A stretch of 34,300 bases of DNA from an uncultured Flavobacteriaceae bacterium (lineage in GTDB: Bacteria; Bacteroidota; Bacteroidia; Flavobacteriales; Flavobacteriaceae), in the NCBI GenBank assembly GCA_947311745.1, contig CAMZLT010000163.1, positions 1 through 34,300 of the forward strand, given 5' to 3'. Positions within the stretch are counted from its first letter, which is position 1, and each line of letters begins with the position of its first letter. Below the pieces are notes generated by a model, which was given only the letters and a program-made list of their open reading frames with translations, had not been told where the DNA came from and searched no databases. The position numbers were made by a program, and so were the translations under genes. Shown one piece after another: positions 2,719 through 26,527 of the stretch.

Positions 2719-3957
2719 TTAATTCTGTAAATTAACCGAACTACCAGCACCATAACCTATAACTTTATCGTATCTAGATCCAAATTTATGTAAATAAACC
2801 AATACTTGATATGTGTTTTCTGTTTGAAAAAAAGAACCGTTTATTTCGTTTAAGTCAATAATTCCATCAGTACTTACCGTTGCATAAGTGTAGTTATAAA
2901 ACCCTTGTTTAAATAAAATAGCTGTTTCGTATAATTTTGTTTCCGAATTGTAAACCATTTTGTTTTCTTCAGATAATTGGTAATTATTAAAAGCACCGTA
3001 GACATAAATATCTTTTTTATTAAGGTTATCGTAATCTAAAAATAAATGTGTTTTGGTATATTCGGATTCAATGGATATGGTTTCGGTATTTAAACTTCTT
3101 ACAACAAAATTTCCGTTAATATCAGGATAATAAGTATATGGTTTTTTAGCTCGTGTTTCATCTACATACAACCTACTATGATAAATATCGTCTAAAACTA
3201 CACGGCGGATATTATTAGTTGCAGTACGCACATCTTTAGTGTCAAAAAATAAATACTCATTTCCACCAAAAAAAGTAGTTTTATCACCATATTTATAAAT
3301 TAGTTGGTTATTTCTATAAAATTGAGGTTGCAAATCAGTTATTACAGTATTCCAATCCATGTTTTGATACAAGGCAACTTTAATTTCTGCACTAGGGTTA
3401 TTAATTAATAAATTTTCGTGATGTATTGTAAATTCAACATTTTGCTTTGTGTTAATTCCTGTGATTTTTCTTGCTTTATGGACGCTAACTCCTACATTTG
3501 TAATTGGCTGGTAAACAATAAAACGTCTTGTAAAAACAACTTCCTCATATTCGTTTAAAACCGAAAGAATATAATTACCAGATATTTTTAAACGTACATA
3601 TTGATTAGGAATTCTAAGTTCGTAATGGGTATAGTTTTGATATGTATTAAACGAATTTTCAAATTCTCTAATACTGCCATCCGCAAAACCAGAGGTGTAT
3701 TCTGTTGGTGATAATTCAGAATCTTTCCAATTGTACGTGCAATGTGTAATTTTATAAGAATAGTCCTTTTGATCGCCTTCTAAATCATCAAATTTTAAAA
3801 TAATTGGTTCGCCTAGTTTTATAATTGGTAAATATGTATTTGCTTTAAAAGGTCTGATTTGTACAGATTTTATATAATCAGGTTCTTGTTTTTCTAAATC
3901 GCTTTGCGAAAAAGAAAAAATTGAAAGAAAAAAAAGAGAATATAAAAAATGTTTCAT
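2719..3957 (-). CDS. DUF5103-like secreted protein (family now annotated as T9SS plug protein)
   Basis: 412 aa. Sec signal peptide with SFS|Q cleavage context. The beta-rich, Tyr/Asn-rich sequence resembles flavobacterial DUF5103 proteins. The family assignment is from memory, not a search. Confidence 0.5.
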   Translation of the reverse strand: MKHFLYSLFFLSIFSFSQSDLEKQEPDYIKSVQIRPFKANTYLPIIKLGEPIILKFDDLEGDQKDYSYKITHCTYNWKDSELSPTEYTSGFADGSIREFENSFNTYQNYTHYELRIPNQYVRLKISGNYILSVLNEYEEVVFTRRFIVYQPITNVGVSVHKARKITGINTKQNVEFTIHHENLLINNPSAEIKVALYQNMDWNTVITDLQPQFYRNNQLIYKYGDKTTFFGGNEYLFFDTKDVRTATNNIRRVVLDDIYHSRLYVDETRAKKPYTYYPDINGNFVVRSLNTETISIESEYTKTHLFLDYDNLNKKDIYVYGAFNNYQLSEENKMVYNSETKLYETAILFKQGFYNYTYATVSTDGIIDLNEINGSFFQTENTYQVLVYLHKFGSRYDKVIGYGAGSSVNLQN

Positions 3958-4229: not shown

Positions 4230-4940
4230 TTACTGTAATATAGTTTTTCCTTGAATTTGATTTTCGGAAATAAAACCATAATATCTTGAATCTCTAGAAT
4301 GATGTCTATTATCTCCTAGAACAAAATAATAATTTTGTTTAAAAAAATACTGCTTGTTTAATATATCTATAGAATCTAAATTTTTACTTTCTATATTTAA
4401 AATTATAGATTTGTATATGTTATAATTATTTTTGTTTATAACTATAGATTTTCCTTTTTTCGGAATCCATATTGGACCAAAATTATCTAAAGTCCAATTA
4501 GTATTTTTTATTTTTTGCTTAGAAATTATTTTTTTAAAATTAAAATTTTTAGAATTTTTTAATTCTAAATTTGAAATGTTTTTGATCATATTAAGATTGC
4601 TTATGGTATCAAAAAAAGTATAATCAAAAGTTAAATTAGGTAAATCATTAATGACTTTATCATTAATATAAATTTTTGTGTTTTTTATTTGTAAAACATC
4701 ATTAGGTAAGCCTATAATTCTTTTTATAATATCTGTTTTTTTATTACTTGAATTTAAGAAAATAATAATATCATTTCTTTTAAAATTTGCTGTTACTTTA
4801 TTAATAAAAACCAAATCGTTTACATATAGTGTGTTTTGCATTGATTTTGAAGATACCATATAAAAACCAATAAATATATTTTTTATTATAATCAATAAAA
4901 AAAGAAAAAACACCACATATTTAAGCAGTTTTGACACCAA
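4230..4940 (-). CDS. Signal peptidase I (S26 family), short paralog, last gene of the peptide operon
   Basis: 236 aa. It has an N-terminal TM anchor, a Ser box (SKSMQNTL), a Lys box (KRIIGLPND) and box E (GDNRHHSRDSRYYGFI). The only starts that keep the TM anchor are TTG (4938-4940) or GTG (4935-4937), directly abutting the TAA of the upstream gene (4941-4943). Confidence 0.85.
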   Translation of the reverse strand: MVSKLLKYVVFFLFLLIIIKNIFIGFYMVSSKSMQNTLYVNDLVFINKVTANFKRNDIIIFLNSSNKKTDIIKRIIGLPNDVLQIKNTKIYINDKVINDLPNLTFDYTFFDTISNLNMIKNISNLELKNSKNFNFKKIISKQKIKNTNWTLDNFGPIWIPKKGKSIVINKNNYNIYKSIILNIESKNLDSIDILNKQYFFKQNYYFVLGDNRHHSRDSRYYGFISENQIQGKTILQ

Positions 4941-5822
4941 TTAATTACTAACTATTAATATTCGTACTCTTTGGTCTAAAGGATTAACTTTTTTTGTGTT
5001 AGATATTGGTTTATATCCTTGACCTTCATAAGAAAGTTGCTTTGCATCGATACCACGATCAATTAAATAATCATAAACGTACTTTGCTCTTAATGTTGAT
5101 AATTTTATAAAATAATTTTTATAAAATTTAGCAAGTTTATGTTTTGTAACAGAAATTTTTCTTGCACCAACGAAACCAATTAATTTAATTTTTATGTTTT
5201 TATCGTATTTTAAGCTATAAAAAAGATGATTTAGATATTGTTTAGATTTTTGAATAATAACGATTTGCCCTTGATTAAATAAAATATCTTCTAAATAATC
5301 CCCTTTTTTTTTCGTTTCAAAAAGATTTTTCCATTTGTTTACAATTTTTACAACTTTATTATTTTCACTTTTTTTATTTATTGTTAAATCCAATTGCTTC
5401 TTTTTTTTTGTAAAAGACTTTAATTTGATTGTTACATTTCGGTTTTGTTTTCTTTTGAAATTGATATTTTTCTTATCTAATATTGGGACTTTGCCAATAT
5501 CAAACCTACTAATTTCTATTTTTTTATTTGTATATTTTTTTATTAATTTAATGATATATTCATTCCGATTTTTTGCTAAATTTTTGTTGTATTTTTCACT
5601 TCCTATATCATCGCAAAAAGCATAAACACTAATAGAATCTTTATTGTTTATATTTGATATAAATTTAATCAAATTTGCTTTTTCGTTACTATTAATATTA
5701 CTTTTATTATATTCAAAATATACTTTTAAAGTAGTTTCAGTTTGACTAAATGTTAAATTAATTGTCAATATTAACAATCCTAATATCTTATATGCTGTTT
5801 TGTAAATATTTTTTTGCATCAT
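4941..5822 (-). CDS. Secreted protein with two OmpA_C-like (peptidoglycan-binding) domains
   Basis: 293 aa with signal peptide ..LTFS|QTE. Domain 1: VYFEYNKS...VYAFCDDIGSEKYNKNLAKNRNEYI. Domain 2: GFVGA...LSTLRAKYVYDYLIDRGIDAKQLSYEGQGY...NPLDQRVRILI. It overlaps the upstream gene by 35 nt. Confidence 0.7.
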   Translation of the reverse strand: MMQKNIYKTAYKILGLLILTINLTFSQTETTLKVYFEYNKSNINSNEKANLIKFISNINNKDSISVYAFCDDIGSEKYNKNLAKNRNEYIIKLIKKYTNKKIEISRFDIGKVPILDKKNINFKRKQNRNVTIKLKSFTKKKKQLDLTINKKSENNKVVKIVNKWKNLFETKKKGDYLEDILFNQGQIVIIQKSKQYLNHLFYSLKYDKNIKIKLIGFVGARKISVTKHKLAKFYKNYFIKLSTLRAKYVYDYLIDRGIDAKQLSYEGQGYKPISNTKKVNPLDQRVRILIVSN

Positions 5823-6267
5823 TTATTTTTAAATCATTTACTTTTAAATAAAAATTAACTTTTCCGTTTTTAATATGTAATAATAACGGCTTACTCACAC
5901 CTGATTTATACTTATAAATTGTAGAGTTTAGATCATATATTTTAGGAATATTCAAATTATCAATTTGATTTTTAAATCTAGAGTTATGACTCATTCCGAC
6001 TATAATAAGTAGTATGTTTTTTTTGGGGTTAAGCGACTGCAACATTTTTAACTCAAGATTTGTTCCATTGCAACTAACACATTCATTTACTGGTAAAAAA
6101 TAAAAAACTCTGTTTTTTTCATTACTTAATTCAATATTAAATTCCTTTTTTAAATATTTCTCAATTCCTTTTATGTGTTTATACTCCTTTTTTTCATTAC
6201 ATGAAGTTACGAAAAGAATATTAATTATCAACAATAATAGTACCTTCTCTAATATTATTTTTTTCAT
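5788..6267 (-). CDS. Thioredoxin-fold lipoprotein with CxxC motif (putative thiol-disulfide oxidoreductase)
   Basis: 159 aa. Lipobox is FVTS|C (Cys23). The fold order fits a TlpA/DsbE-like layout: beta-strand VFYFLP, then C63-V-S-C66 (nt 6070-6081) at a helix N-terminus, later SKP-LLLHIKNGKV (cis-Pro plus beta-strand). It overlaps the upstream gene by 47 nt. Confidence 0.6.
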   Translation of the reverse strand: MKKIILEKVLLLLIINILFVTSCNEKKEYKHIKGIEKYLKKEFNIELSNEKNRVFYFLPVNECVSCNGTNLELKMLQSLNPKKNILLIIVGMSHNSRFKNQIDNLNIPKIYDLNSTIYKYKSGVSKPLLLHIKNGKVNFYLKVNDLKINDAKKYLQNSI

Positions 6268-6688
6268 TTTTTTCTTTTAATCCTTTTTTTATTTTAATTA
6301 TAAGTTTATAATTATAAACACCTTTTTCTTTAAAAATATAACTACCATATTTTTTATTATAAAGAGGAATACTATGAATTACCATTCCTGATTCTAAGTT
6401 TATAGGATAAATTCTATTAAAATTTACCAAAGTGTTATTAATGTATAAAAACCAAGACCATTTTTTTCTATTTGCAGCAATATTACCTTTGTTTCCTATT
6501 GCTATTTTTGGAATAATTCGTTGTCCAACTTTTGCAATAGAATCTATTTCTATTTTATGTACATATAAATCTACATACTTAATTTTTGTATTAATTATTA
6601 CTTCGTCTAAATCTATACGTTCCGTTTTAAATTGTGAATATACTTTACTATTTAACAAAAAAAATACTATAAATATTAATCTAAACAT
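6221..6688 (-). CDS. Secreted CARDB-like beta-sandwich protein
   Basis: 155 aa with signal peptide ..KVYS|QFK. The pattern DLYVHKIEI....VGQRI.PKIAIGNKGNIAA....WSWFLYINNTLV......L.SG........F.EKGVYNYKLII fits the CARDB/Ig-like repeat logic. Its start lies 1 nt after the upstream stop. Confidence 0.5.
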   Translation of the reverse strand: MFRLIFIVFFLLNSKVYSQFKTERIDLDEVIINTKIKYVDLYVHKIEIDSIAKVGQRIIPKIAIGNKGNIAANRKKWSWFLYINNTLVNFNRIYPINLESGMVIHSIPLYNKKYGSYIFKEKGVYNYKLIIKIKKGLKEKNEKNNIREGTIIVDN

Positions 6689-6689
6689 A

Positions 6690-7913
6690 TTAATTAATTT
6701 TTTTTATTTTATAAACGTACTTTAAACTAAAATATTTTTTATTATCATCGAAATTAGTATGTTGATTAGAAAACATAAAAAAACCATCCGAAGTAGGAAC
6801 CAATTTATTGTACATATGATAAGGAAATAAATATTCGCCAACATAATTGAAATTTTTATCAAAAAAAATTAATATAGCATCTTTTTCGAATATATCATTG
6901 TATAATTCATTTTCGTTTAATGCTAATTGTCTGTCTAAATATAATCTTGAATAAAGTTTTACTTTAGTGTGATAAAAAAAATCACTATAATATGGTGTAG
7001 ATAAATACATTTCCTTATTTTTTTCTACATCTGTAGAATAAATAGGTTTCATAGGTAGATTAATTTTTTTTGAATATTTACACATTGCTTTAAACTCTCC
7101 TCCAAACTTGTTATGAATATAATAATATATTTTATGGTTTACTTTATAATTAACAAAAATTGTATCACCAACAAAAATTAAATTTTTATAGGATAAATAA
7201 TTATTTCCAAAAGTATAATCTCCTTTATATCTGTACATTCCTTCTTGCTTTCCGAAAAATTCTTTCCAATTATTATTATAGATGTCAAACACTCCAATTG
7301 TTGAAGTGTTCTTAAAGCCTTTTAATAAATGAGAATCAAAAGGTTCAATGCCCAAATAAATAGAACTATCAATTTTGTTATAATATAAATTATTAAAATC
7401 AACATTAAAATTAACATCATTAAACCCTTCCGTATTAGTTCTATTATTAAAAAAACTATTTTCTGTTTTAAATAGTATTTTATTTAGTTTACTTTCTTTT
7501 ACAATTTTATTTTCATTAATATTTATAAGAAATATTTTTGTAGGAAAATCTTGTGCAACGACTAAAGTGCTGTCGTTTATAAAATCAAAAGATTTGATAT
7601 TACCATTTACTTTATTTGGTAATTCAATTTTAGAAATTAATGCTTTATTTGTATTTAACAAAGCCATTTTATTAGATTTATAAATATAATAAAACAAAGA
7701 ATCGTTAATTAGTTTATGAACATATGACGAAATTGGTAAGCCTTTTGAATTAGCAAAAATACTATCTGTTAATTTTAAAGTATATATATTTTTCTTTGCT
7801 TTTAATAACAAAACATCAGACTTTATATTATTGTTTACAATATATTCTGAATCTAGTTTGTTCTTTTTACAAGAAAAACTAATCATAATAATTAAATAAA
7901 TTATTTTTTTCAT
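6690..7913 (-). CDS. Large lipoprotein, DUF4221 / 6-bladed beta-propeller-like (function unknown)
   Basis: The ORF is open to a GTG at 7940. The ATG at 7911-7913 gives a canonical lipoprotein leader, MKKIIYLIIMISFS|C. The ~400-aa Asn/Tyr/Phe-rich beta-type sequence has recurring hydrophobic-strand/turn periodicity (..ILIFFDKNFNYVGEY.., ..TSDGFFMF..). This resembles Bacteroidetes propeller lipoproteins. The gene itself is solid; the family is a guess. Confidence 0.55.
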   Translation of the reverse strand: MKKIIYLIIMISFSCKKNKLDSEYIVNNNIKSDVLLLKAKKNIYTLKLTDSIFANSKGLPISSYVHKLINDSLFYYIYKSNKMALLNTNKALISKIELPNKVNGNIKSFDFINDSTLVVAQDFPTKIFLININENKIVKESKLNKILFKTENSFFNNRTNTEGFNDVNFNVDFNNLYYNKIDSSIYLGIEPFDSHLLKGFKNTSTIGVFDIYNNNWKEFFGKQEGMYRYKGDYTFGNNYLSYKNLIFVGDTIFVNYKVNHKIYYYIHNKFGGEFKAMCKYSKKINLPMKPIYSTDVEKNKEMYLSTPYYSDFFYHTKVKLYSRLYLDRQLALNENELYNDIFEKDAILIFFDKNFNYVGEYLFPYHMYNKLVPTSDGFFMFSNQHTNFDDNKKYFSLKYVYKIKKIN

Positions 7914-7918
7914 AAATT

Positions 7919-7950
7919 TTATATCCATGCGTGTTATCACATGGATATAA
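7919..7950 (-). promoter_or_regulatory. Intercistronic stem-loop between the peptide gene and the downstream genes
   Basis: Perfect inverted repeat ATATCCATG (7921-7929) / CATGGATAT (7940-7948) with a 10-nt loop, extendable by two A-T pairs to 7919-7950. It sits 7 nt after the peptide stop and 6 nt before the lipoprotein ATG. On the RNA it is followed by AAAAUUU, not a clean U-tract. Confidence 0.5.
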
Positions 7951-7956
7951 GTTTAA

Positions 7957-8172
7957 TTAATATGCAGACACACCTGTACATGCATTGTAAGATCCATTAG
8001 TTCCAATGCATTGATCGTTCCACCAAGTTCCATGACATGAATACCAACAACCTCCGTCATTAGTCCAAGTTCCTGTGTGGCGATTAAAATCCCATCCTGC
8101 TTCAACTTTTTTCGGTTTTAAAGCATAAAGTGTTACAACAATTACTGCTAATAAAAATAATTTTTTTTTCAT
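7957..8172 (-). CDS. 71-aa precursor of a Cys/Trp/Gly-rich secreted peptide (first gene of the operon)
   Basis: ATG start. Leader is MKKK-LFLLAVIVVTLYAL-KPKKVEA. The predicted 46-aa C-terminal part is GWDFNRHTGTWTNDGGCWYSCHGTWWNDQCIGTNGSYNACTGVSAY, with 4 Cys, 5 Trp, 8 Gly and no Lys, Leu, Glu, Met or Pro. Line 7981-8040 hand-counts at 24/60 G+C, against 8-17/60 in neighbouring operon lines. Confidence 0.7.
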   Translation of the reverse strand: MKKKLFLLAVIVVTLYALKPKKVEAGWDFNRHTGTWTNDGGCWYSCHGTWWNDQCIGTNGSYNACTGVSAY

Positions 8173-8235: not shown

Positions 8236-8251
8236 AACACAAATATGTGTT
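8236..8251. promoter_or_regulatory. Candidate operator palindrome in the divergent XRE/peptide-operon intergenic region
   Basis: AACACA-AATA-TGTGTT is a perfect 6-4-6 inverted repeat. On the minus strand it contains CATATTTG (8240-8247), a 7/8 match to the Bacteroidetes -7 box TAnnTTTG, about 68 nt upstream of the peptide ATG. Confidence 0.4.
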
Positions 8252-8278: not shown

Positions 8279-8515
8279 TTGAAAGTGCTTGAAAATGAAG
8301 AAATACAATTTATTCAAAATTTTGGTAAACGATTAAGAAAGATTAGAATTGAGAAAAATTTGTCTCAAGAAAATTTAGCAAATGATGCTGATATACCTAT
8401 AAATCAAGTTGGCAGAATTGAACGAGCAGAAATTTTTACTTCGTTAAAAACCATATATAGATTATCTAAAGCATTAAACATAGAAATAATAGAATTATTC
8501 AGAGAACAAGTTTAA
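8279..8515 (+). CDS. XRE-family helix-turn-helix transcriptional regulator
   Basis: 78 aa with an HTH_3 pattern (FGKRLRKIRIEKNLSQENLANDADIPINQVGRIERAE....LKTIYRLSKALN). There is no in-frame ATG, so the start must be TTG 8279 or GTG 8285. Its 3' end overlaps the convergent dxs 3' end by 21 nt. Confidence 0.7.
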   Translation: MKVLENEEIQFIQNFGKRLRKIRIEKNLSQENLANDADIPINQVGRIERAEIFTSLKTIYRLSKALNIEIIELFREQV

Positions 8516-10288
8516 AATAATCCTCTCAATAGATTTCATATCCAAACCAACTATTTTTTGTAGTTCGGAAATGCTTCCGTGTTCTATAAAAATATCAGGA
8601 ACTCCGATGCGTTTTACACGAATATTATGATACGTGTTTTCCTGTAAAAATTCTAAAATTGCGGTTCCAAATCCGTTAGTAATACTTCCGTCTTCAATGG
8701 TAATAATAGTATTAAAATTTTTAGCAATTTTATGCAACAAAACTTCATCTAAAGGTTTTACAAACTGCATATCTGAATGAAAAACAGCCTTTTTAAACGG
8801 TTTTTCTTTACATATTTCAATAATGGTATTGGTTGTAATTCCGATAGTTAAAACAGCTATTTTATTTCCTTTATTTAATACTTTTGCTTTACCAATTTCT
8901 ATTTTAGAAAATGTATTTGTTTTATTTTCTTCACTAACACGACCACGAGGATATCGTATAGCAATTGGTAAGTTTAAACCAAGTTGAGCTGTGTATAAAA
9001 TATTTCGTAAATCGGAAGCATTTGTCGGAGCATAAATAATTAAATTAGGTATTAAACGCAGATAGGATATATCAAAAACACCATGATGTGTTGCACCATC
9101 TTCACCAACCAAACCAGCTCTATCCACACAAAAAATAACTGGTAATTTTTGCAAAGCAACATCGTGAATAATTTGATCGTAAGCACGTTGTAAAAAAGTA
9201 GAATATATTGTACAAAACGGAATAAATCCTTGTGTTGCCATTCCTGCTGAAAGCGTTACAGCATGTTGTTCGGCAATACCAACATCAAAAGCTCTGTTGG
9301 GAAATTCGGCAATCATATATTTTAACGAACTACCTGTTGGCATTGCTGGTGTTATACCAATAATTTTTTTATTTTTTCGTGCTAAAGCAACAAGAGTCAA
9401 ACCAAAAATATCTTGAAATTTTAAAGGTAAATTCAAGTTATTTACTATTCTATCACCAGAAATTTTATTAAATTTACCAGGAGCGTGATAAGTAATTTGA
9501 TTTTCTTCCGCTTGACGTAAACCTTTTCCTTTTGTAGTAATTACATGTAAAAATTTTGGTCCTTTTATGGTTTTTAACCGTTCTAATTCGCGAATAATTT
9601 TTGGTAAATCATGTCCGTCAATCGGACCAGAATAATCAAAATTTAATGCCTCAAAAATATTGAAATCACATTTTTTAGTGTCTTTTTTTATATGGGTTAA
9701 ATATTCTTTTAAAGCACCAACGTTTGGGTCGATTCCCATTTCGTTATCATTAAGAATAATTAAAATATTGGTATTGGTAACACCTGCGTGATTTAGACCT
9801 TCAAAAGCCATTCCACTTGCAATACTAGCATCGCCAATTACAGCAATATGTTGTTTCTCTGTTTCACCTTTTAACTGCGAAGCAATTGCCATTCCTAAAA
9901 CTGCCGAAATAGAGGTAGAAGAGTGTCCAACACCAAAAGCATCGTAAATACTTTCATTTCTTTTAGGAAAACCAGCAATACCATGTAATTGTCTATTTGT
10001 ATGAAAAATAGCCTTTCTACCAGTTAAAATTTTATGACCATACGCTTGGTGTCCAACATCCCAAACCAATAAATCCTTTGGTGTATCAAACACATAATGC
10101 AAAGCAATAGTCAGTTCTACAACACCTAAACTAGCACCAAGATGACCTTCTTTAGTTGCCACAATATCAATAATAAATTCGCGCAATTCTTTTGCAAGTA
10201 TTGGTAAATTTCTTATCGGAATTTTTTTTAGATCCTTAGGATATTGTATTTGTTCTAATATACTTTTTTTCACACAGCGAAAGTACAA
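8495..10288 (-). CDS. dxs: 1-deoxy-D-xylulose-5-phosphate synthase
   Basis: 597 aa with the TPP-enzyme signatures GHLGASLGVVEL, DVGHQAYGHKILTGR and IGDASIASGMAFEGLNHAG, plus a transketolase-like C-terminus. The track start is TTG at 10288; GTG at 10273 is an alternative. Confidence 0.95.
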   Translation of the reverse strand: MYFRCVKKSILEQIQYPKDLKKIPIRNLPILAKELREFIIDIVATKEGHLGASLGVVELTIALHYVFDTPKDLLVWDVGHQAYGHKILTGRKAIFHTNRQLHGIAGFPKRNESIYDAFGVGHSSTSISAVLGMAIASQLKGETEKQHIAVIGDASIASGMAFEGLNHAGVTNTNILIILNDNEMGIDPNVGALKEYLTHIKKDTKKCDFNIFEALNFDYSGPIDGHDLPKIIRELERLKTIKGPKFLHVITTKGKGLRQAEENQITYHAPGKFNKISGDRIVNNLNLPLKFQDIFGLTLVALARKNKKIIGITPAMPTGSSLKYMIAEFPNRAFDVGIAEQHAVTLSAGMATQGFIPFCTIYSTFLQRAYDQIIHDVALQKLPVIFCVDRAGLVGEDGATHHGVFDISYLRLIPNLIIYAPTNASDLRNILYTAQLGLNLPIAIRYPRGRVSEENKTNTFSKIEIGKAKVLNKGNKIAVLTIGITTNTIIEICKEKPFKKAVFHSDMQFVKPLDEVLLHKIAKNFNTIITIEDGSITNGFGTAILEFLQENTYHNIRVKRIGVPDIFIEHGSISELQKIVGLDMKSIERIILNLFSE

Positions 10289-11190: not shown

Positions 11191-11191
11191 G

Positions 11192-11273
11192 TACTCGAGG
11201 TGGGAATCGAACCCACACTCCCGAAAGAACTGGATTTTGAATCCAGCGCGTCTACCAATTCCGCCACTCGAGC
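11192..11273 (-). tRNA. tRNA-Leu (anticodon CAA)
   Basis: The reverse complement reads GCTCGAG-TG-GCGGAATTGGTAGACGC-G-CTGGA-TTCAAAA-TCCAG-(long variable arm TTCTTTCGGGAGTG)-GTGGGTTCGATTCCCAC-CTCGAGT-A. It has a class II long variable arm and no encoded CCA. The 1:72 pair reads G.U in my folding. Confidence 0.9.
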
Positions 11274-25040: not shown

Positions 25041-25099
25041 TTTATTCTTATTGGCAAATTAATTTTGTAAATTTGTGTCTAAATTTAAACACAATTATT

Positions 25100-26527
25100 A
25101 TGAAGTATTTTTACATTTTTTTATTATTAATCGGATTTTACGGTTTTTCTCAAGCCTCTTTTAACGAAATTAATACAGGATTACCTGCGTTAAATTTTTC
25201 TACTTCGTCTTTAGCCGATGTAGATAATGATGGTGATTTAGATGTATATCTTTCTGGACTTGATGCATATGGTAATGCAGTTGGAGGACTATACATATAT
25301 AATCATGGTGCATATACCTTATCTACTACTTCTACTTTACCAATTGTATATATTGGTGGTTCGGATTGGGCAGATATAGATAATGATGGTGATATGGATA
25401 TAATGATTTTCGGAACAGATAGTTCGTTTGCTTTTGATATTGCAGAAATATACCAAAATAATGGTGATGGTACTTTTACTAGTTTAAACGTAGGTATTCC
25501 TGCTGTTGAACAAGGTAGTACCGAATTTGTAGATGTAAATAACGATGGTTTTATGGATATTTCCATTTCAGGAATTGGAAGTTCTTCTAATATCACTAAA
25601 ATTTATTTAAACGATGGTGATAGTACTTTTACAGAACTTACAGGTCATGGGATTCCAGGTTTAAATTGGGGAAAATTAACTTGGGGAGATTACAACAACG
25701 ATACTTATCCAGACGCTTTTATTTCCGGTTTTGACGATAATACAGGAGGAACACAAACGTTTTACACAAAATTATTTATCAATAACAATGGTACTAGTTT
25801 TACAGATTCAGGTTTATCTTTTCATTCAGGTTGGTTAGGTGATATCGAATGGGCAGATTATAACAATGATGGTAATATAGATATTATTGTTTCAGGTGTT
25901 GGAGGTACTGGAGATGAACGATTTACTTTATTGTATAAAAACAATGGCGATGGTACTTTTACCGAATTAGACCCTGGATTTTCGCCAGTATCACACAGTT
26001 CTTTAGAATGGGCAGATTTTGATGGTGATAATGATTTAGATTTATATTTAACGGGTGTTACCACAACTCCAGGAGATGGAAACAATGTTGCAGCAGTATA
26101 TAGAAATGATGGTAACGATGTTTTTACAATGAATACTACTCAGATTTTTAATGCTTCGTATTACGGAGATGCAGATACAGGTGATATTAATAATGACGGA
26201 AAAATGGATATAATCTCAACTGGTTACGACGAAATTTATGTTGTTAAAACAACTGTTTACCTTAATAACACTGTTATAGCAGGGCTGTCTAACAATGTAT
26301 TGGAAGGCGTTTCAGTTTATCCAAATCCAGTACAAAACATATTACATATTGACAATCAAAATGATAAAAATATTTTTGTGGAGTTGTTTTCTATAGATGG
26401 CAAATTAATTTTACAAACAAAATTAGAAAACAACCGTTTAAATATTTCGGATGTTGCATCTGGAATATATACACTTAAAATAACAAATAGTTATAAAAGT
26501 GTTTCTAAAAAAATAGTAATACAATAA
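25100..26527 (+). CDS. FG-GAP/VCBS-repeat (7-bladed propeller) protein with T9SS C-terminal sorting domain
   Basis: Signal peptide ..GFS|QAS. There are seven D-x-[DN]-x-D-G-x-x-D Ca-binding repeats (DVDNDGDLD, DIDNDGDMD, DVNNDGFMD, DYNNDTYPD, DYNNDGNID, DFDGDNDLD, DINNDGKMD). The C-terminal ~80 aa has the type-A CTD pattern (VYPNPV.N.L.I....I.....G...........L.IS....GIY.LKI). Confidence 0.85.
   Translation: MKYFYIFLLLIGFYGFSQASFNEINTGLPALNFSTSSLADVDNDGDLDVYLSGLDAYGNAVGGLYIYNHGAYTLSTTSTLPIVYIGGSDWADIDNDGDMDIMIFGTDSSFAFDIAEIYQNNGDGTFTSLNVGIPAVEQGSTEFVDVNNDGFMDISISGIGSSSNITKIYLNDGDSTFTELTGHGIPGLNWGKLTWGDYNNDTYPDAFISGFDDNTGGTQTFYTKLFINNNGTSFTDSGLSFHSGWLGDIEWADYNNDGNIDIIVSGVGGTGDERFTLLYKNNGDGTFTELDPGFSPVSHSSLEWADFDGDNDLDLYLTGVTTTPGDGNNVAAVYRNDGNDVFTMNTTQIFNASYYGDADTGDINNDGKMDIISTGYDEIYVVKTTVYLNNTVIAGLSNNVLEGVSVYPNPVQNILHIDNQNDKNIFVELFSIDGKLILQTKLENNRLNISDVASGIYTLKITNSYKSVSKKIVIQ

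What the first reader, a model, noticed from the sequence alone, without database searches (positions are those of the whole stretch)
7957..8172. 71-aa precursor with an extreme-composition 46-aa C-terminal peptide (C-x3-C-x8-C-x9-C, 5 Trp, 8 Gly, no Lys)
Seen in the sequence: the C-terminal part after ..KVEA is GWDFNRHTGTWTNDGGCWYSCHGTWWNDQCIGTNGSYNACTGVSAY. It has four Cys (residues 42, 46, 55, 65), five Trp and eight Gly. It has no Lys, Leu, Glu, Met or Pro, and its net charge is about -2 plus two His. Every neighbouring protein is Lys/Asn/Ile-rich. The DNA encoding it is the most GC-rich stretch of the island: line 7981-8040 hand-counts at 24/60 G+C, against 8-17/60 for sampled lines elsewhere in the operon. 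This argues for purifying selection on the peptide sequence rather than a chance ORF. An even Cys count fits two disulfides. The anionic, Trp-rich character is unlike typical cationic antimicrobial peptides. The TM-like leader followed by ..VEA.. loosely recalls the Bacteroidetes NVEALA small-protein family; that is my recollection and is unverified.
Basis: partly seen in the sequence, partly recalled or inferred. Interest (0 to 1): 0.8.

Follow-up and report, generated by a model that had tools for sequence, protein, structure and literature searches.

The report
Exported Trp-rich peptide with own signal peptidase
The 71-codon ORF is a real gene for a small exported, disulfide-looped, tryptophan-rich peptide; it leads a rare six-gene envelope cassette of marine-type Flavobacteriia that carries its own signal peptidase, and its function has never been described.

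Summary
The ORF (7957-8172, minus strand) is a real gene. Homologous peptides occur in four other lineages, including Tenacibaculum finnmarkense, and conserved residues often use different codons.

- a Sec-type signal peptide ending P-x-x-V-x-A;
- a ~34-residue core, xWDFxxxTGxW...C-x-G-S/T-W-W-x3-C-x-x-T.

Only the C46/C55 pair (C-x8-C) is invariant. C42 and C65 occur together and only in this copy. The C-terminal tail is variable. No peptide matches Pfam NVEALA.

The main finding is the context. The peptide gene always comes first. A strong hairpin follows it, then five conserved envelope genes:
- a ~400-aa beta-rich lipoprotein;
- a CARDB-like protein;
- a lipoprotein with an invariant CxxC;
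- an OmpA-like protein;
- a short, catalytically intact type I signal peptidase.

This cassette sits in four different genomic contexts at lower GC than its flanks.

Best reading (about 45%): the peptide is exported by Sec, cleaved by the cassette peptidase and oxidised by the CxxC lipoprotein, giving a bacteriocin-like product. Main rival (about 30%): a periplasmic ligand or small subunit of the lipoprotein/OmpA complex. Activity is untested.

The parts
7957..8172 (-). Precursor gene, 71 aa plus stop. Residues 1-25 (8098-8172) form a Sec-type signal peptide: MKKK, a 14-residue hydrophobic core, then KPKKVEA. Residues 26-71 (7960-8097) form the mature 46-aa peptide.
   Evidence: Homologues. 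Invariant residues are Y16 P20 V23 A25 W27 D28 F29 T33 G34 W36 C46 G48 W50 W51 C55 T58. Synonymous codon differences at conserved residues.
7919..7950 (-). Perfect 13-bp hairpin between the peptide stop codon and the lipoprotein start, read as a terminator/attenuator. It would keep peptide mRNA in excess over the downstream genes.
   Evidence: Free energy -16.8 kcal/mol, z = -5.8. All five lineages have a comparable hairpin at the same position with unrelated sequences (z -4.1 to -7.0). The simple terminator scan did not call it, because it is AT-rich.
6690..7913 (-). 407-aa lipoprotein (signal ..MISFS|C), beta-rich and probably a beta-propeller. The ATG at 7913 is preferred over the GTG at 7940, which lies inside the hairpin.
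   Evidence: No Pfam, NCBIfam or PDB sequence hit. Homologues are 39-49% identical and always follow the peptide gene. The AlphaFold model is poor (pLDDT 42) but shows 4-strand repeats. Every top Foldseek hit is a beta-propeller, none significant. NCBI names some T. finnmarkense homologues 'DUF4221 domain-containing protein'.
6221..6688 (-). 155-aa secreted protein, weakly CARDB/Ig-like. Its signal peptide ends ..VYS|Q, so it follows the Q-rule.
   Evidence: CARDB E=0.018, below the cutoff. 48-63% identical among lineages. UniRef names a Tenacibaculum homologue a CARDB domain-containing protein.
5788..6267 (-). 159-aa lipoprotein (..VTS|C) with an invariant N-E-C-x-x-C motif and an invariant V-S-K-P-L-L motif. 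Inferred to be a thioredoxin-fold thiol-disulfide oxidoreductase.
   Evidence: Invariant columns C63, C66 and S125-L129. Weak hints only: SelL-related redox protein E=0.096. hhalign places KPLLLHIKNGKV on the cis-Pro/beta3-beta4 region of E. coli thioredoxin (41% over 29 columns, probability 2.8%). The single-sequence model and fold search were uninformative.
4941..5822 (-). 293-aa secreted protein with two OmpA_C-like peptidoglycan-binding regions. Its signal peptide ends ..TFS|Q.
   Evidence: Pfam OmpA 1.6e-15, two stretches. NCBIfam OmpA/Pal-type hits. Conserved position in all complete cassettes.
4230..4940 (-). 236-aa type I signal peptidase (S26) with an N-terminal membrane anchor. The catalytic Ser (SSKSM) and Lys (IIKRIIGLP) and the GDNRHHSRDSRYYG box are all intact. 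It is the last gene of the cassette and abuts the OmpA-like gene.
   Evidence: Peptidase_S26 7.8e-33; TIGR02227 at 115 bits against a cutoff of 47. Catalytic boxes align to solved signal peptidases 4nv4 and SpsB 4wvh. GC is 18.7%, like the cassette. It co-occurs in four different genomic contexts, and its pairwise identities track those of the lipoprotein.
8236..8251 (.). Perfect palindrome AACACAAATATGTGTT in the divergent promoter region. Inferred operator of the adjacent HTH protein.
   Evidence: The block is invariant in the window, L001 and L002, although the flanking proteins are only ~55% identical. It is the only perfect copy in the window; 0.17 matches with up to one mismatch are expected by chance.
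8279..8515 (+). 78-aa Xre/HTH_3 regulator, transcribed divergently. Optional module: present in three of five lineages.
   Evidence: HTH_3 6.4e-10. Resembles small 'control proteins' in PADLOC. Homologous HTH genes sit in the same position in L001 and L002 and are absent in L003 and L008.

Best explanation
The ORF encodes the precursor of a small exported peptide. That peptide is the product, or cargo, of a self-contained six-gene envelope cassette.

Proposed pathway:
1. A divergent Xre-type repressor controls the promoter through the AACACA-N4-TGTGTT operator.
2. The hairpin after the peptide gene lets only part of the transcripts continue into the five accessory genes, so the peptide is made in excess.
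3. The precursor crosses the inner membrane through Sec.
4. The cassette's own short type I signal peptidase cuts after the conserved P(-6)..V(-3)-x-A(-1), releasing GWDF...
5. The CxxC lipoprotein closes the invariant C46-C55 loop. In this copy a second, nested C42-C65 bridge probably forms as well. The result would be a compact, Trp-rich mini-protein made of beta-hairpins.
6. The beta-propeller-like lipoprotein, the Ig-like protein and the peptidoglycan-binding OmpA-like protein handle, hold or protect against the peptide.

I commit to a bacteriocin-like, Sec-dependent antagonistic peptide as the most likely role.

Shown here: the gene is real and selected; the cassette is conserved; signal-peptide features are present; the S26 catalytic residues are intact; the Cys pair is invariant; the hairpins and the operator are conserved.

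Inferred: which peptidase cuts, who forms the disulfide, where the peptide ends up, and what it does.
For: - Real gene under protein-level selection.
- The signal peptide has a 14-15-residue hydrophobic core and invariant P-6, V-3 and A-1.
- The two other cleavable Sec proteins of the cassette have Gln at +1, as about 71% of Bacteroidetes signal peptidase I substrates do (PMC10653852). The peptide has G/G/R/K/G at +1.
- The S26 gene travels with the cassette in four unrelated genomic contexts, shares its low GC and shows matching pairwise identities. Its catalytic residues are intact.
- T. finnmarkense strains carry shortened variants of this S26 (205 and 223 aa). That argues it is not the essential housekeeping enzyme.
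- The CxxC is invariant in a lipoprotein of the cassette. Bacteroidetocin loci likewise carry a thiol oxidoreductase thought to make the peptide's disulfides (PMC6671954).
- Several features are typical of bacteriocin operons: a structural gene followed by a hairpin in all five lineages; a small repressor with a conserved operator; patchy distribution; GC below the flanks; and strain-level frameshifts and truncations.
- Dedicated signal peptidases in the same operon as their substrates have a precedent in tapA-sipW-tasA (PMC4551309).
- Sec-dependent bacteriocins processed by signal peptidase are known (PMC3546714).
Against: - No route across the outer membrane is encoded. There is no ABC/C39 exporter, no T9SS C-terminal domain and no barrel protein. 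The default destination in a diderm is therefore the periplasm.
- The peptides are anionic to neutral, unlike most bacteriocins.
- No recognisable immunity gene is present.
- Four envelope accessory proteins are more than a simple bacteriocin needs.
- The peptide core diverges at about the same rate as its partner proteins (42-61% against 39-63% identity). It is not hypervariable.
- The thioredoxin-fold assignment of the CxxC lipoprotein rests on motifs only.
- I could not show that a second, housekeeping signal peptidase exists in the same genomes.
Confidence: 0.45

Rival explanations
1. Periplasmic ligand or small subunit. After export and cleavage the peptide stays in the periplasm. There it docks into the beta-propeller-like lipoprotein as part of a peptidoglycan-anchored complex of lipoprotein, Ig-like protein and OmpA-like protein. 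It has no antagonistic role.
For: - Every cassette protein is an envelope protein, and no outer-membrane exporter is encoded.
- The lipoproteins lack an acidic stretch after the lipidated Cys (C|KKNKL, C|KKPKI). From memory of the Bacteroidetes lipoprotein export signal, this suggests they face the periplasm.
- The peptide diverges at the same rate as its partners.
- W/G/N/D-rich peptides that bind propellers are known, for example the colicin TolB box (from memory).
- The peptide N-terminus resembles a blade segment of an FG-GAP-like repeat protein (hhalign probability 55%).
Against: - The attenuator hairpin implies the peptide is made in large excess over its supposed partners.
- The C-terminal tail is free to vary from 1 to 27 residues.
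- The locus is patchy and decaying, which is unusual for a structural envelope complex.
- The propeller assignment itself is of low confidence.
Confidence: 0.3
2. An ordinary small secreted protein, processed by the housekeeping signal peptidase. On this view the adjacent S26 gene is simply the organism's LepB and the co-location is incidental.
For: - The leader has only canonical Sec features.
- The S26 protein matches only the generic signal peptidase I models.
Against: - The same S26 follows the same four genes in four unrelated genomic contexts.
- Its GC is like the cassette's, and its pairwise identities track the lipoprotein's.
- Only one of 185,579 species-representative genomes has the cassette lipoprotein, whereas every bacterium needs a signal peptidase.
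- Shortened S26 variants are tolerated in T. finnmarkense strains.
Confidence: 0.1
3. Precursor of a modified peptide or peptide-derived cofactor. Examples would be a Cys-Trp or Trp-Trp cross-link as in the CTQ/TTQ small subunits that pair with beta-propeller subunits, or cyclisation or attachment by the S26 enzyme in the manner of the S26-family TraF acting on TrbC pilin.
For: - The C-x-G-S/T-W-W-x3-C motif and W27/W36 are invariant.
- A propeller-like partner is present.
- An S26 enzyme and a CxxC protein are the only candidate enzymes.
- The variable C-terminal tail could be removed.
Against: - The cassette has no radical SAM enzyme, haem protein, flavoprotein, YcaO or lanthionine-type enzyme.
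- The only radical SAM gene in the window is a distant RlmN.
- No redox partner is encoded.
Confidence: 0.05
4. A member of the Bacteroidetes NVEALA small-protein family.
For: - The leader is followed by ..VEA..
- The neighbour is a ~400-aa lipoprotein. From memory only, this resembles the propeller lipoproteins found next to NVEALA genes in Bacteroides.
Against: - No Pfam family, NVEALA included, matches any of the five peptides at E<=10.
- The conserved motif is P-x-x-V-[ED]-A at a signal-peptide cleavage site, not NVEALA.
Confidence: 0.02
5. A chance ORF, or a conserved non-coding element.
For: The ORF is short and has no database annotation.
Against: - Five lineages keep the reading frame, with synonymous changes at conserved residues.
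- The open frame is improbable at this base composition.
- NCBI already calls the Tenacibaculum homologue a protein.
Confidence: 0.01

Closest known systems
Sec-dependent class II bacteriocins of Gram-positive bacteria (enterocin P, hiracin JM79, bacteriocin 31; PMC3546714)
   Same: - A ribosomal precursor with an ordinary Sec signal peptide, removed by a signal peptidase.
- A mature peptide of about 40-50 residues.
- A disulfide loop and several Trp residues.
- No modification enzymes.
   Different: - No sequence similarity, and no YGNGV box.
- The peptide is anionic to neutral rather than cationic.
- The producer is a diderm.
- The cassette brings its own signal peptidase plus four envelope proteins.
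- No immunity gene is recognisable.
- Activity is untested.
Bacteroidetocins (class IIf peptide toxins of Bacteroidetes; PMC6671954, PMC8546649)
   Same: - Same phylum.
- Mature peptides of about 35-50 aa with at least 2 Cys.
- The locus carries a thiol oxidoreductase-type gene thought to form the disulfides.
- Compact cassettes whose flanks differ between genomes.
   Different: - Bacteroidetocins have a 15-16-aa double-glycine leader and an ABC transporter with a C39 peptidase domain, plus a 5-TM protein.
- Here there is a Sec signal peptide and an S26 peptidase, with no ABC transporter.
- There is no sequence similarity.
tapA-sipW-tasA of Bacillus subtilis (dedicated signal peptidase operon; PMC4551309)
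   Same: - A type I signal peptidase is encoded in the same operon as its Sec substrate.
- There is also a wall-anchoring accessory protein: TapA there, the OmpA-like protein here.
   Different: - SipW is an ER/archaeal-type S26 enzyme. This one has the bacterial Ser-Lys boxes.
- TasA is a 26-kDa fibre subunit, not a 4-5-kDa disulfide peptide.
- The host is a monoderm.
Pfam NVEALA small proteins of Bacteroidales
   Same: - Small Bacteroidota proteins with a hydrophobic N-terminus.
- From memory only: they often lie next to ~400-aa propeller lipoproteins.
   Different: No HMM match. The motif is different and sits at a signal-peptidase site.
Small Trp/Cys subunits of quinoprotein amine dehydrogenases (MADH beta, QHNDH gamma) paired with beta-propeller subunits (from memory)
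   Same: A small exported Trp- and Cys-containing chain, a leader removed by a dedicated protease (QhpE), a ~400-aa propeller partner and a thioredoxin-like helper (MauD).
   Different: No MauG, QhpD or QhpG-type modifying enzymes, no redox partner and far fewer Cys. There is no sequence similarity.

Membership tests
Pfam NVEALA | Match to the Pfam NVEALA profile | tested here: not met
   There were zero Pfam families for the window peptide at E<=1 and E<=10. None of the five family members matched NVEALA.
Pfam NVEALA | Conserved N-V-E-A-L-A motif | tested here: not met
   The conserved motif is Y-x-x-x-P-x-x-V-[ED]-A followed by [GRK]-W-D-F. Only V-E-A overlaps.
Sec-dependent class II bacteriocins | N-terminal Sec signal peptide with a signal peptidase I site | tested here: met
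   There is a basic n-region, a 14-15-residue hydrophobic core, and invariant P-6, V-3 and A-1 in five lineages. This was judged by the -3/-1 rule; no predictor was available.
Sec-dependent class II bacteriocins | Small unmodified mature peptide with a disulfide | tested here: inconclusive
   The mature peptides are 38-60 aa with an invariant C-x8-C, and the cassette has no modification enzymes. The disulfide itself and the absence of modification were not observed.
Sec-dependent class II bacteriocins | Antibacterial activity and a cognate immunity gene | not testable with these tools
   This needs overlay assays. No immunity-like gene was recognised.
Class IIa (pediocin-like) bacteriocins | YGNGV(X)C box | tested here: not met
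   The motif is absent from all five sequences.
Bacteroidetocins (class IIf) | 15-16-aa double-glycine leader | tested here: not met
   The leader is a 25-29-aa hydrophobic signal peptide ending V-x-A. The feature is taken from PMC6671954.
Bacteroidetocins (class IIf) | ABC transporter with C39 peptidase domain in the locus | tested here: not met
   No such gene is present in any of the complete cassettes.
Bacteroidetocins (class IIf) | Thiol oxidoreductase gene in the locus | tested here: inconclusive
   There is a lipoprotein with an invariant CxxC. However, it has no family hit above threshold, the model is poor and the fold search is uninformative.
Signal peptidase I (MEROPS S26A), for the gene at 4230-4940 | Profile match above the curated cutoff, with catalytic Ser and Lys present | tested here: met
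   PF10502 scores 114 bits against a cutoff of 22.9, and TIGR02227 scores 115 against 47. The SSKSM, KRIIG and GDNRxxSxDSR boxes are conserved and align to solved enzymes.
Dedicated signal peptidase systems (SipW type) | The peptidase gene is linked to the substrate gene across genomes | tested here: met
   The gene order is the same in the window, L002, L003-L007 and L008-L010, each with different flanks. Pairwise identities co-vary with the other cassette genes.
Dedicated signal peptidase systems (SipW type) | A separate housekeeping signal peptidase exists in the same genome | not tested
The only indirect evidence is the shortened S26 variants in T. finnmarkense strains.
Dedicated signal peptidase systems (SipW type) | Substrate processing depends on this peptidase | not testable with these tools
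   This needs genetics or an in vitro cleavage assay.
Pfam DUF4221, for the lipoprotein at 6690-7913 | Match to the family profile | tested here: not met
   NCBI names several T. finnmarkense homologues 'DUF4221 domain-containing protein'. The Pfam copy used here gave no such hit for any member at E<=10.
RiPP precursors | A modifying enzyme encoded with the precursor | tested here: not met
   The cassette contains only lipoproteins, an Ig-like protein, an OmpA-like protein and the S26 peptidase.

The most novel reading that the evidence does not exclude
The peptide is not a toxin. It is the small Trp/Cys-bearing ligand or subunit of a previously undescribed envelope machine anchored to peptidoglycan. 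A dedicated type I signal peptidase releases it. A CxxC lipoprotein staples it. It then inserts into the beta-propeller-like lipoprotein. It may do so as a blade-like strand pair, given its resemblance to FG-GAP-type blade segments, or carry a Trp/Cys-derived cross-link.
Probability: 0.25. Interest if true: 0.75.

Novelty: new variant of a known kind. Interest (0 to 1): 0.55.

Why it matters
If the reading is right, this would be, to my knowledge, the first Bacteroidota peptide system built on Sec export plus a cassette-encoded type I signal peptidase. The known systems use a double-glycine leader and an ABC/C39 exporter instead.

It defines a new peptide family that is anionic, Trp-rich and has a single conserved disulfide loop. 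It also defines four uncharacterised envelope protein families that always accompany the peptide.

It gives a testable model for how Flavobacteriia make disulfide-bonded peptides.

One host is the salmon pathogen Tenacibaculum finnmarkense. Natural strains there carry intact or frameshifted versions of the peptide gene, so they offer ready-made comparisons.

Tried and rejected
- **Family libraries.** Pfam, NCBIfam, PHROGs and PADLOC gave nothing for the peptide, the lipoprotein or the two ~155-aa proteins, apart from weak sub-threshold hints.
- **PDB sequence searches.** Profiles of the lipoprotein, p155 and p159 found nothing.
- **Structure prediction.** The lipoprotein (4-sequence alignment) gave pLDDT 42 and p159 (single sequence) gave pLDDT 40. 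Neither model is good enough, and the fold searches on them were not significant.
- **Searches for more family members.**
  - The exact-sequence look-up of the window's own peptide found no contig on record.
  - The word-indexed search found one peptide homologue.
  - The exhaustive HMMER search of 1.84 billion representatives found three real ones. It also returned five repeat-driven false positives, P0007 and P0010-P0013.
  - The scan of species-representative genomes found only T. finnmarkense.
  - Two metagenome scans, one viral scan, and plasmid and phage tblastn searches found nothing.
  - A profile search with the lipoprotein alignment added no distant relatives.
- **Literature.** No paper mentions NVEALA or DUF4221. 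Nothing was found on this cassette.
- **Rejected readings.** These are the NVEALA family, a defence system, a phage or plasmid element, a RiPP with a tailoring enzyme, and the GC peak as independent evidence (it follows from the amino-acid composition).
- **Terminators.** The consensus terminator scan missed the hairpin because it requires G+C-rich stems. Direct folding was needed. No clear terminator was found after the S26 gene.
Full report
**1.

The minus-strand ORF at 7957-8172 starts with ATG and encodes 71 residues:

MKKKLFLLAVIVVTLYALKPKKVEAGWDFNRHTGTWTNDGGCWYSCHGTWWNDQCIGTNGSYNACTGVSAY

- Cys lie at residues 42, 46, 55 and 65.
- The last 46 residues contain five Trp and eight Gly, and no K, L, E, M or P.
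- Their net charge is -2.
- The 60-nt line 7981-8040 has 24/60 G+C.

The mature-peptide DNA is 42.8% GC. The five downstream genes are 19-22% GC. This peak is exactly what the amino-acid sequence predicts under the window's own codon usage, which gives an expected 43.2%. So the peak shows that an unusual composition is being maintained in an AT-rich genome. It is not independent evidence. An open frame of this length has a probability of about 0.002 at cassette base composition.

**2. It is a real, selected gene, but the family is tiny**

Four searches were run.
- The word-indexed search of 5.8 billion proteins found one homologue, P0002, at 56% identity.
- The exhaustive HMMER pass over 1.84 billion cluster representatives added P0008 and the Tenacibaculum peptide P0009. 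The other hits were repeat proteins and are spurious.
- Following the neighbouring lipoprotein gave a fifth peptide in a JGI metagenome contig, L002.
- Scans of 185,579 species-representative genomes, JGI metagenomes, viral contigs, plasmids and phages added only Tenacibaculum finnmarkense.

The five sequences align over the leader and a ~34-residue core. The invariant residues are Y16, P20, V23, A25, W27, D28, F29, T33, G34, W36, C46, G48, W50, W51, C55 and T58. Among identical residues with degenerate codons, 33-52% use different codons in every pairwise comparison. The conservation therefore acts on the protein.

**3.

- Only C46 and C55 (C-x8-C, in the motif C-x-G-S/T-W-W-x3-C-x-x-T) are invariant.
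- C42 and C65 are present together, and only in this window's copy. This fits one core disulfide plus an optional nested C42-C65 bridge, rather than a family-wide two-disulfide fold.
- After C-I-G-T the tail varies from 1 to 27 residues.
- Net charge ranges from -5 to +1.

**4. The leader is a Sec signal peptide, not NVEALA**

All five leaders have a basic n-region, a 14-15-residue hydrophobic core, a Pro at -6, Val at -3 and Ala at -1. These are the textbook requirements for signal peptidase I. No Pfam family, NVEALA included, matches any of the five peptides at E<=10.

Position +1 is G, G, R, K or G. In contrast, the two other cleavable Sec proteins of the cassette have Gln at +1 in every lineage. 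[quoted passage not shown]

**5. The context is the main finding**

In every lineage with enough contig, the peptide gene is the first gene of the same six-gene, same-strand cassette.

| Position | Product | Window coordinates (all minus strand) |
|---|---|---|
| 1 | peptide | 7957-8172 |
| 2 | ~400-aa lipoprotein | 6690-7913 |
| 3 | ~155-aa secreted protein | 6221-6688 |
| 4 | ~140-160-aa lipoprotein | 5788-6267 |
| 5 | OmpA-like protein | 4941-5822 |
| 6 | ~240-aa Peptidase_S26 | 4230-4940 |

The flanking genes are unrelated in the four complete cases.

| Locus | Flanking genes |
|---|---|
| Window | dxs and T9SS plug |
| L002 | peptidase M1 and an AMP-binding enzyme |
| Tenacibaculum | DUF7738 gene and DnaK |
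| L008 | BipA and CDO_I |

Cassette GC is 5-8 points below the flanks in all four loci. The pairwise identities of all cassette proteins move together. For example, L003 against L008 is the closest pair for the lipoprotein (49%), for S26 (56%) and for p155 (63%). The signal peptidase therefore belongs to the cassette.

- **S26 peptidase.** It keeps the catalytic Ser box (SSKSM), the Lys box (KRIIGLP) and the GDNRHHSRDSRYYG box. It aligns best to short Gram-positive-type enzymes.
- **Fourth gene.** It encodes a lipoprotein with an invariant N-E-C-x-x-C and an invariant S-K-P-L-L. hhalign places the latter on the cis-Pro/beta3-beta4 region of E. coli thioredoxin, though with low probability. I read it as a thioredoxin-fold oxidoreductase. 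The family searches and the structural test were inconclusive.
- **Large lipoprotein.** It has no family or PDB sequence match. The poor model shows four-strand repeats. All top fold matches are beta-propellers, but none is significant. NCBI labels some Tenacibaculum homologues DUF4221, a label I could not reproduce.
- **Overall.** Everything encoded is an envelope protein. There is no ATPase, ABC transporter, outer-membrane barrel or modifying enzyme.

**6. Regulatory anatomy**

Between the peptide stop codon and the lipoprotein start, all five lineages have a strong perfect hairpin. The stems are 11-16 bp and z-scores run from -4.1 to -7.0. The sequences are unrelated, and several are followed by U-runs. 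In the window the hairpin lies at 7919-7950. This is the classic arrangement for producing a structural-gene transcript in excess of the accessory genes.

Upstream, three of the five lineages have a divergent 76-78-aa Xre-type HTH gene. Its intergenic region contains an invariant palindrome, AACACA-N4-TGTGTT. This is the only perfect copy in the window, at 8236-8251.

**7. Mechanism**

The steps I consider well supported are:
1. Sec export;
2. cleavage after V-x-A;
3. formation of the C46-C55 loop.

Assigning the cleavage to the cassette S26 and the oxidation to the CxxC lipoprotein is an inference from linkage. There are precedents. SipW is a dedicated signal peptidase encoded with its substrates TasA and TapA (PMC4551309). 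Bacteroidetocin loci carry thiol oxidoreductase genes, proposed to be needed because Bacteroides lack general disulfide-forming machinery (PMC6671954).

For the final role I favour a bacteriocin-like, Sec-dependent peptide (see PMC3546714 for Sec-dependent bacteriocins). The reasons are:
- the operon architecture;
- the small repressor;
- the patchy, low-GC, variably inserted cassette;
- its strain-level decay in T. finnmarkense.

On that last point, a 5-nt deletion frameshifts the signal peptide in L003-L006, while strain TNO010 (L007) keeps an intact 66-aa precursor. Shortened lipoprotein, OmpA and S26 variants also occur among strains.

The main rival is that the peptide never leaves the periplasm and is a ligand or small subunit of the lipoprotein/Ig-like/OmpA-like complex. 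The points in its favour are:
- no outer-membrane exit is encoded;
- the peptides are not cationic;
- the core evolves at the same rate as its partners.

I rate these two readings at about 0.45 and 0.30.

**8. Comparison with known systems**

The system works like a Sec-dependent class II bacteriocin combined with a SipW-style dedicated peptidase and a bacteroidetocin-style locus oxidoreductase. It is not a member of any of those families.
- It has no YGNGV box.
- It has no double-glycine leader.
- It has no ABC/C39 exporter.
- It has no NVEALA match.
- It shares no sequence similarity with any of them.

The peptide family and three of its partner families are unannotated in Pfam and NCBIfam.

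**9. Verdict**

This is a solid, real finding. The novelty lies in the cassette, and above all in the linked type I signal peptidase. The function remains unproven. Interest is moderate to high (0.55), and I class it as a new variant of a known kind.

Noticed in passing
L003 7801-7996; L004-L006 (same region); L007 5563-5763: In Tenacibaculum finnmarkense the peptide gene is intact (66 aa) in genomovar ulcerans TNO010. Four other assemblies carry a 5-nt deletion in the n-region that frameshifts the signal peptide. Strain collections also show shortened lipoprotein (171-213 aa), OmpA (287 aa) and S26 (205 and 223 aa) variants, so the locus is accessory and partly decaying.
   Followed up: partly
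window 8025-8127 (peptide residues 16-39) vs P0012 residues 195-219: The end of the leader and the start of the mature peptide (YALKPKKVEAGWDFNRHTGTWTND) resemble a segment of the ~48-aa FG-GAP-like repeats of an unrelated 409-aa protein (SFSKPTKVGKGWDFTNYFPGHWTNN). hhalign gives 50% identity over 24 columns, probability 55%, E 1.2e-4. The window's own FG-GAP protein shows no such match. This could be convergence or an evolutionary origin from a propeller blade.
   Followed up: partly
window 6221-6688 and 4941-5822; homologues in L002, L003, L008: The two cleavable Sec proteins of the cassette have Gln at +1 after the predicted signal peptide in every lineage, so they follow the Bacteroidetes Q-rule. 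The peptide never does; it has G, G, R, K or G at +1 (PMC10653852).
   Followed up: partly
window 4230-8172 vs flanks; L002, L003, L008: The cassette is 5-8 GC points below its flanks in all four loci (21.3% against 28.5% in the window). It sits between different housekeeping genes each time. No integrase, flanking repeats or adjacent tRNA were seen; the nearest tRNA, Leu-CAA at 11191-11273, is 3 kb away.
   Followed up: partly
window 7913-7940: The longest ORF of the lipoprotein starts at a GTG (7940) inside the hairpin. The ATG at 7913 gives a proper lipoprotein signal peptide (MKKIIYLIIMISFS|C) and is the likelier start. The T. finnmarkense annotation likewise runs the lipoprotein ORF through the hairpin.
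   Followed up: partly
L002 10123-10284 and 10361-11431: In the JGI contig the OmpA-like gene is split into a 53-aa piece carrying the signal peptide and a 356-aa remainder. This suggests a frameshift or an assembly error.
   Followed up: no
window 8495-8515: The 3' end of the HTH gene (8279-8515, plus strand) overlaps the 3' end of the convergent dxs ORF (8495-10288, minus strand) by 21 nt.
   Followed up: no
window 2719-3957 and 25073-26527: The host has a type IX secretion system. A T9SS plug protein (NF052315, 2.1e-139) lies directly downstream of the cassette. An FG-GAP_3 protein with a Por_Secre_tail sorting domain lies at 25073-26527. The peptide itself has no such sorting domain.
   Followed up: no
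L001 3983-9583: In L001 the HTH/peptide module sits next to an 1866-aa bacterial alpha-2-macroglobulin gene. The contig ends just after the start of the lipoprotein gene, so the rest of that cassette is unseen.
   Followed up: no
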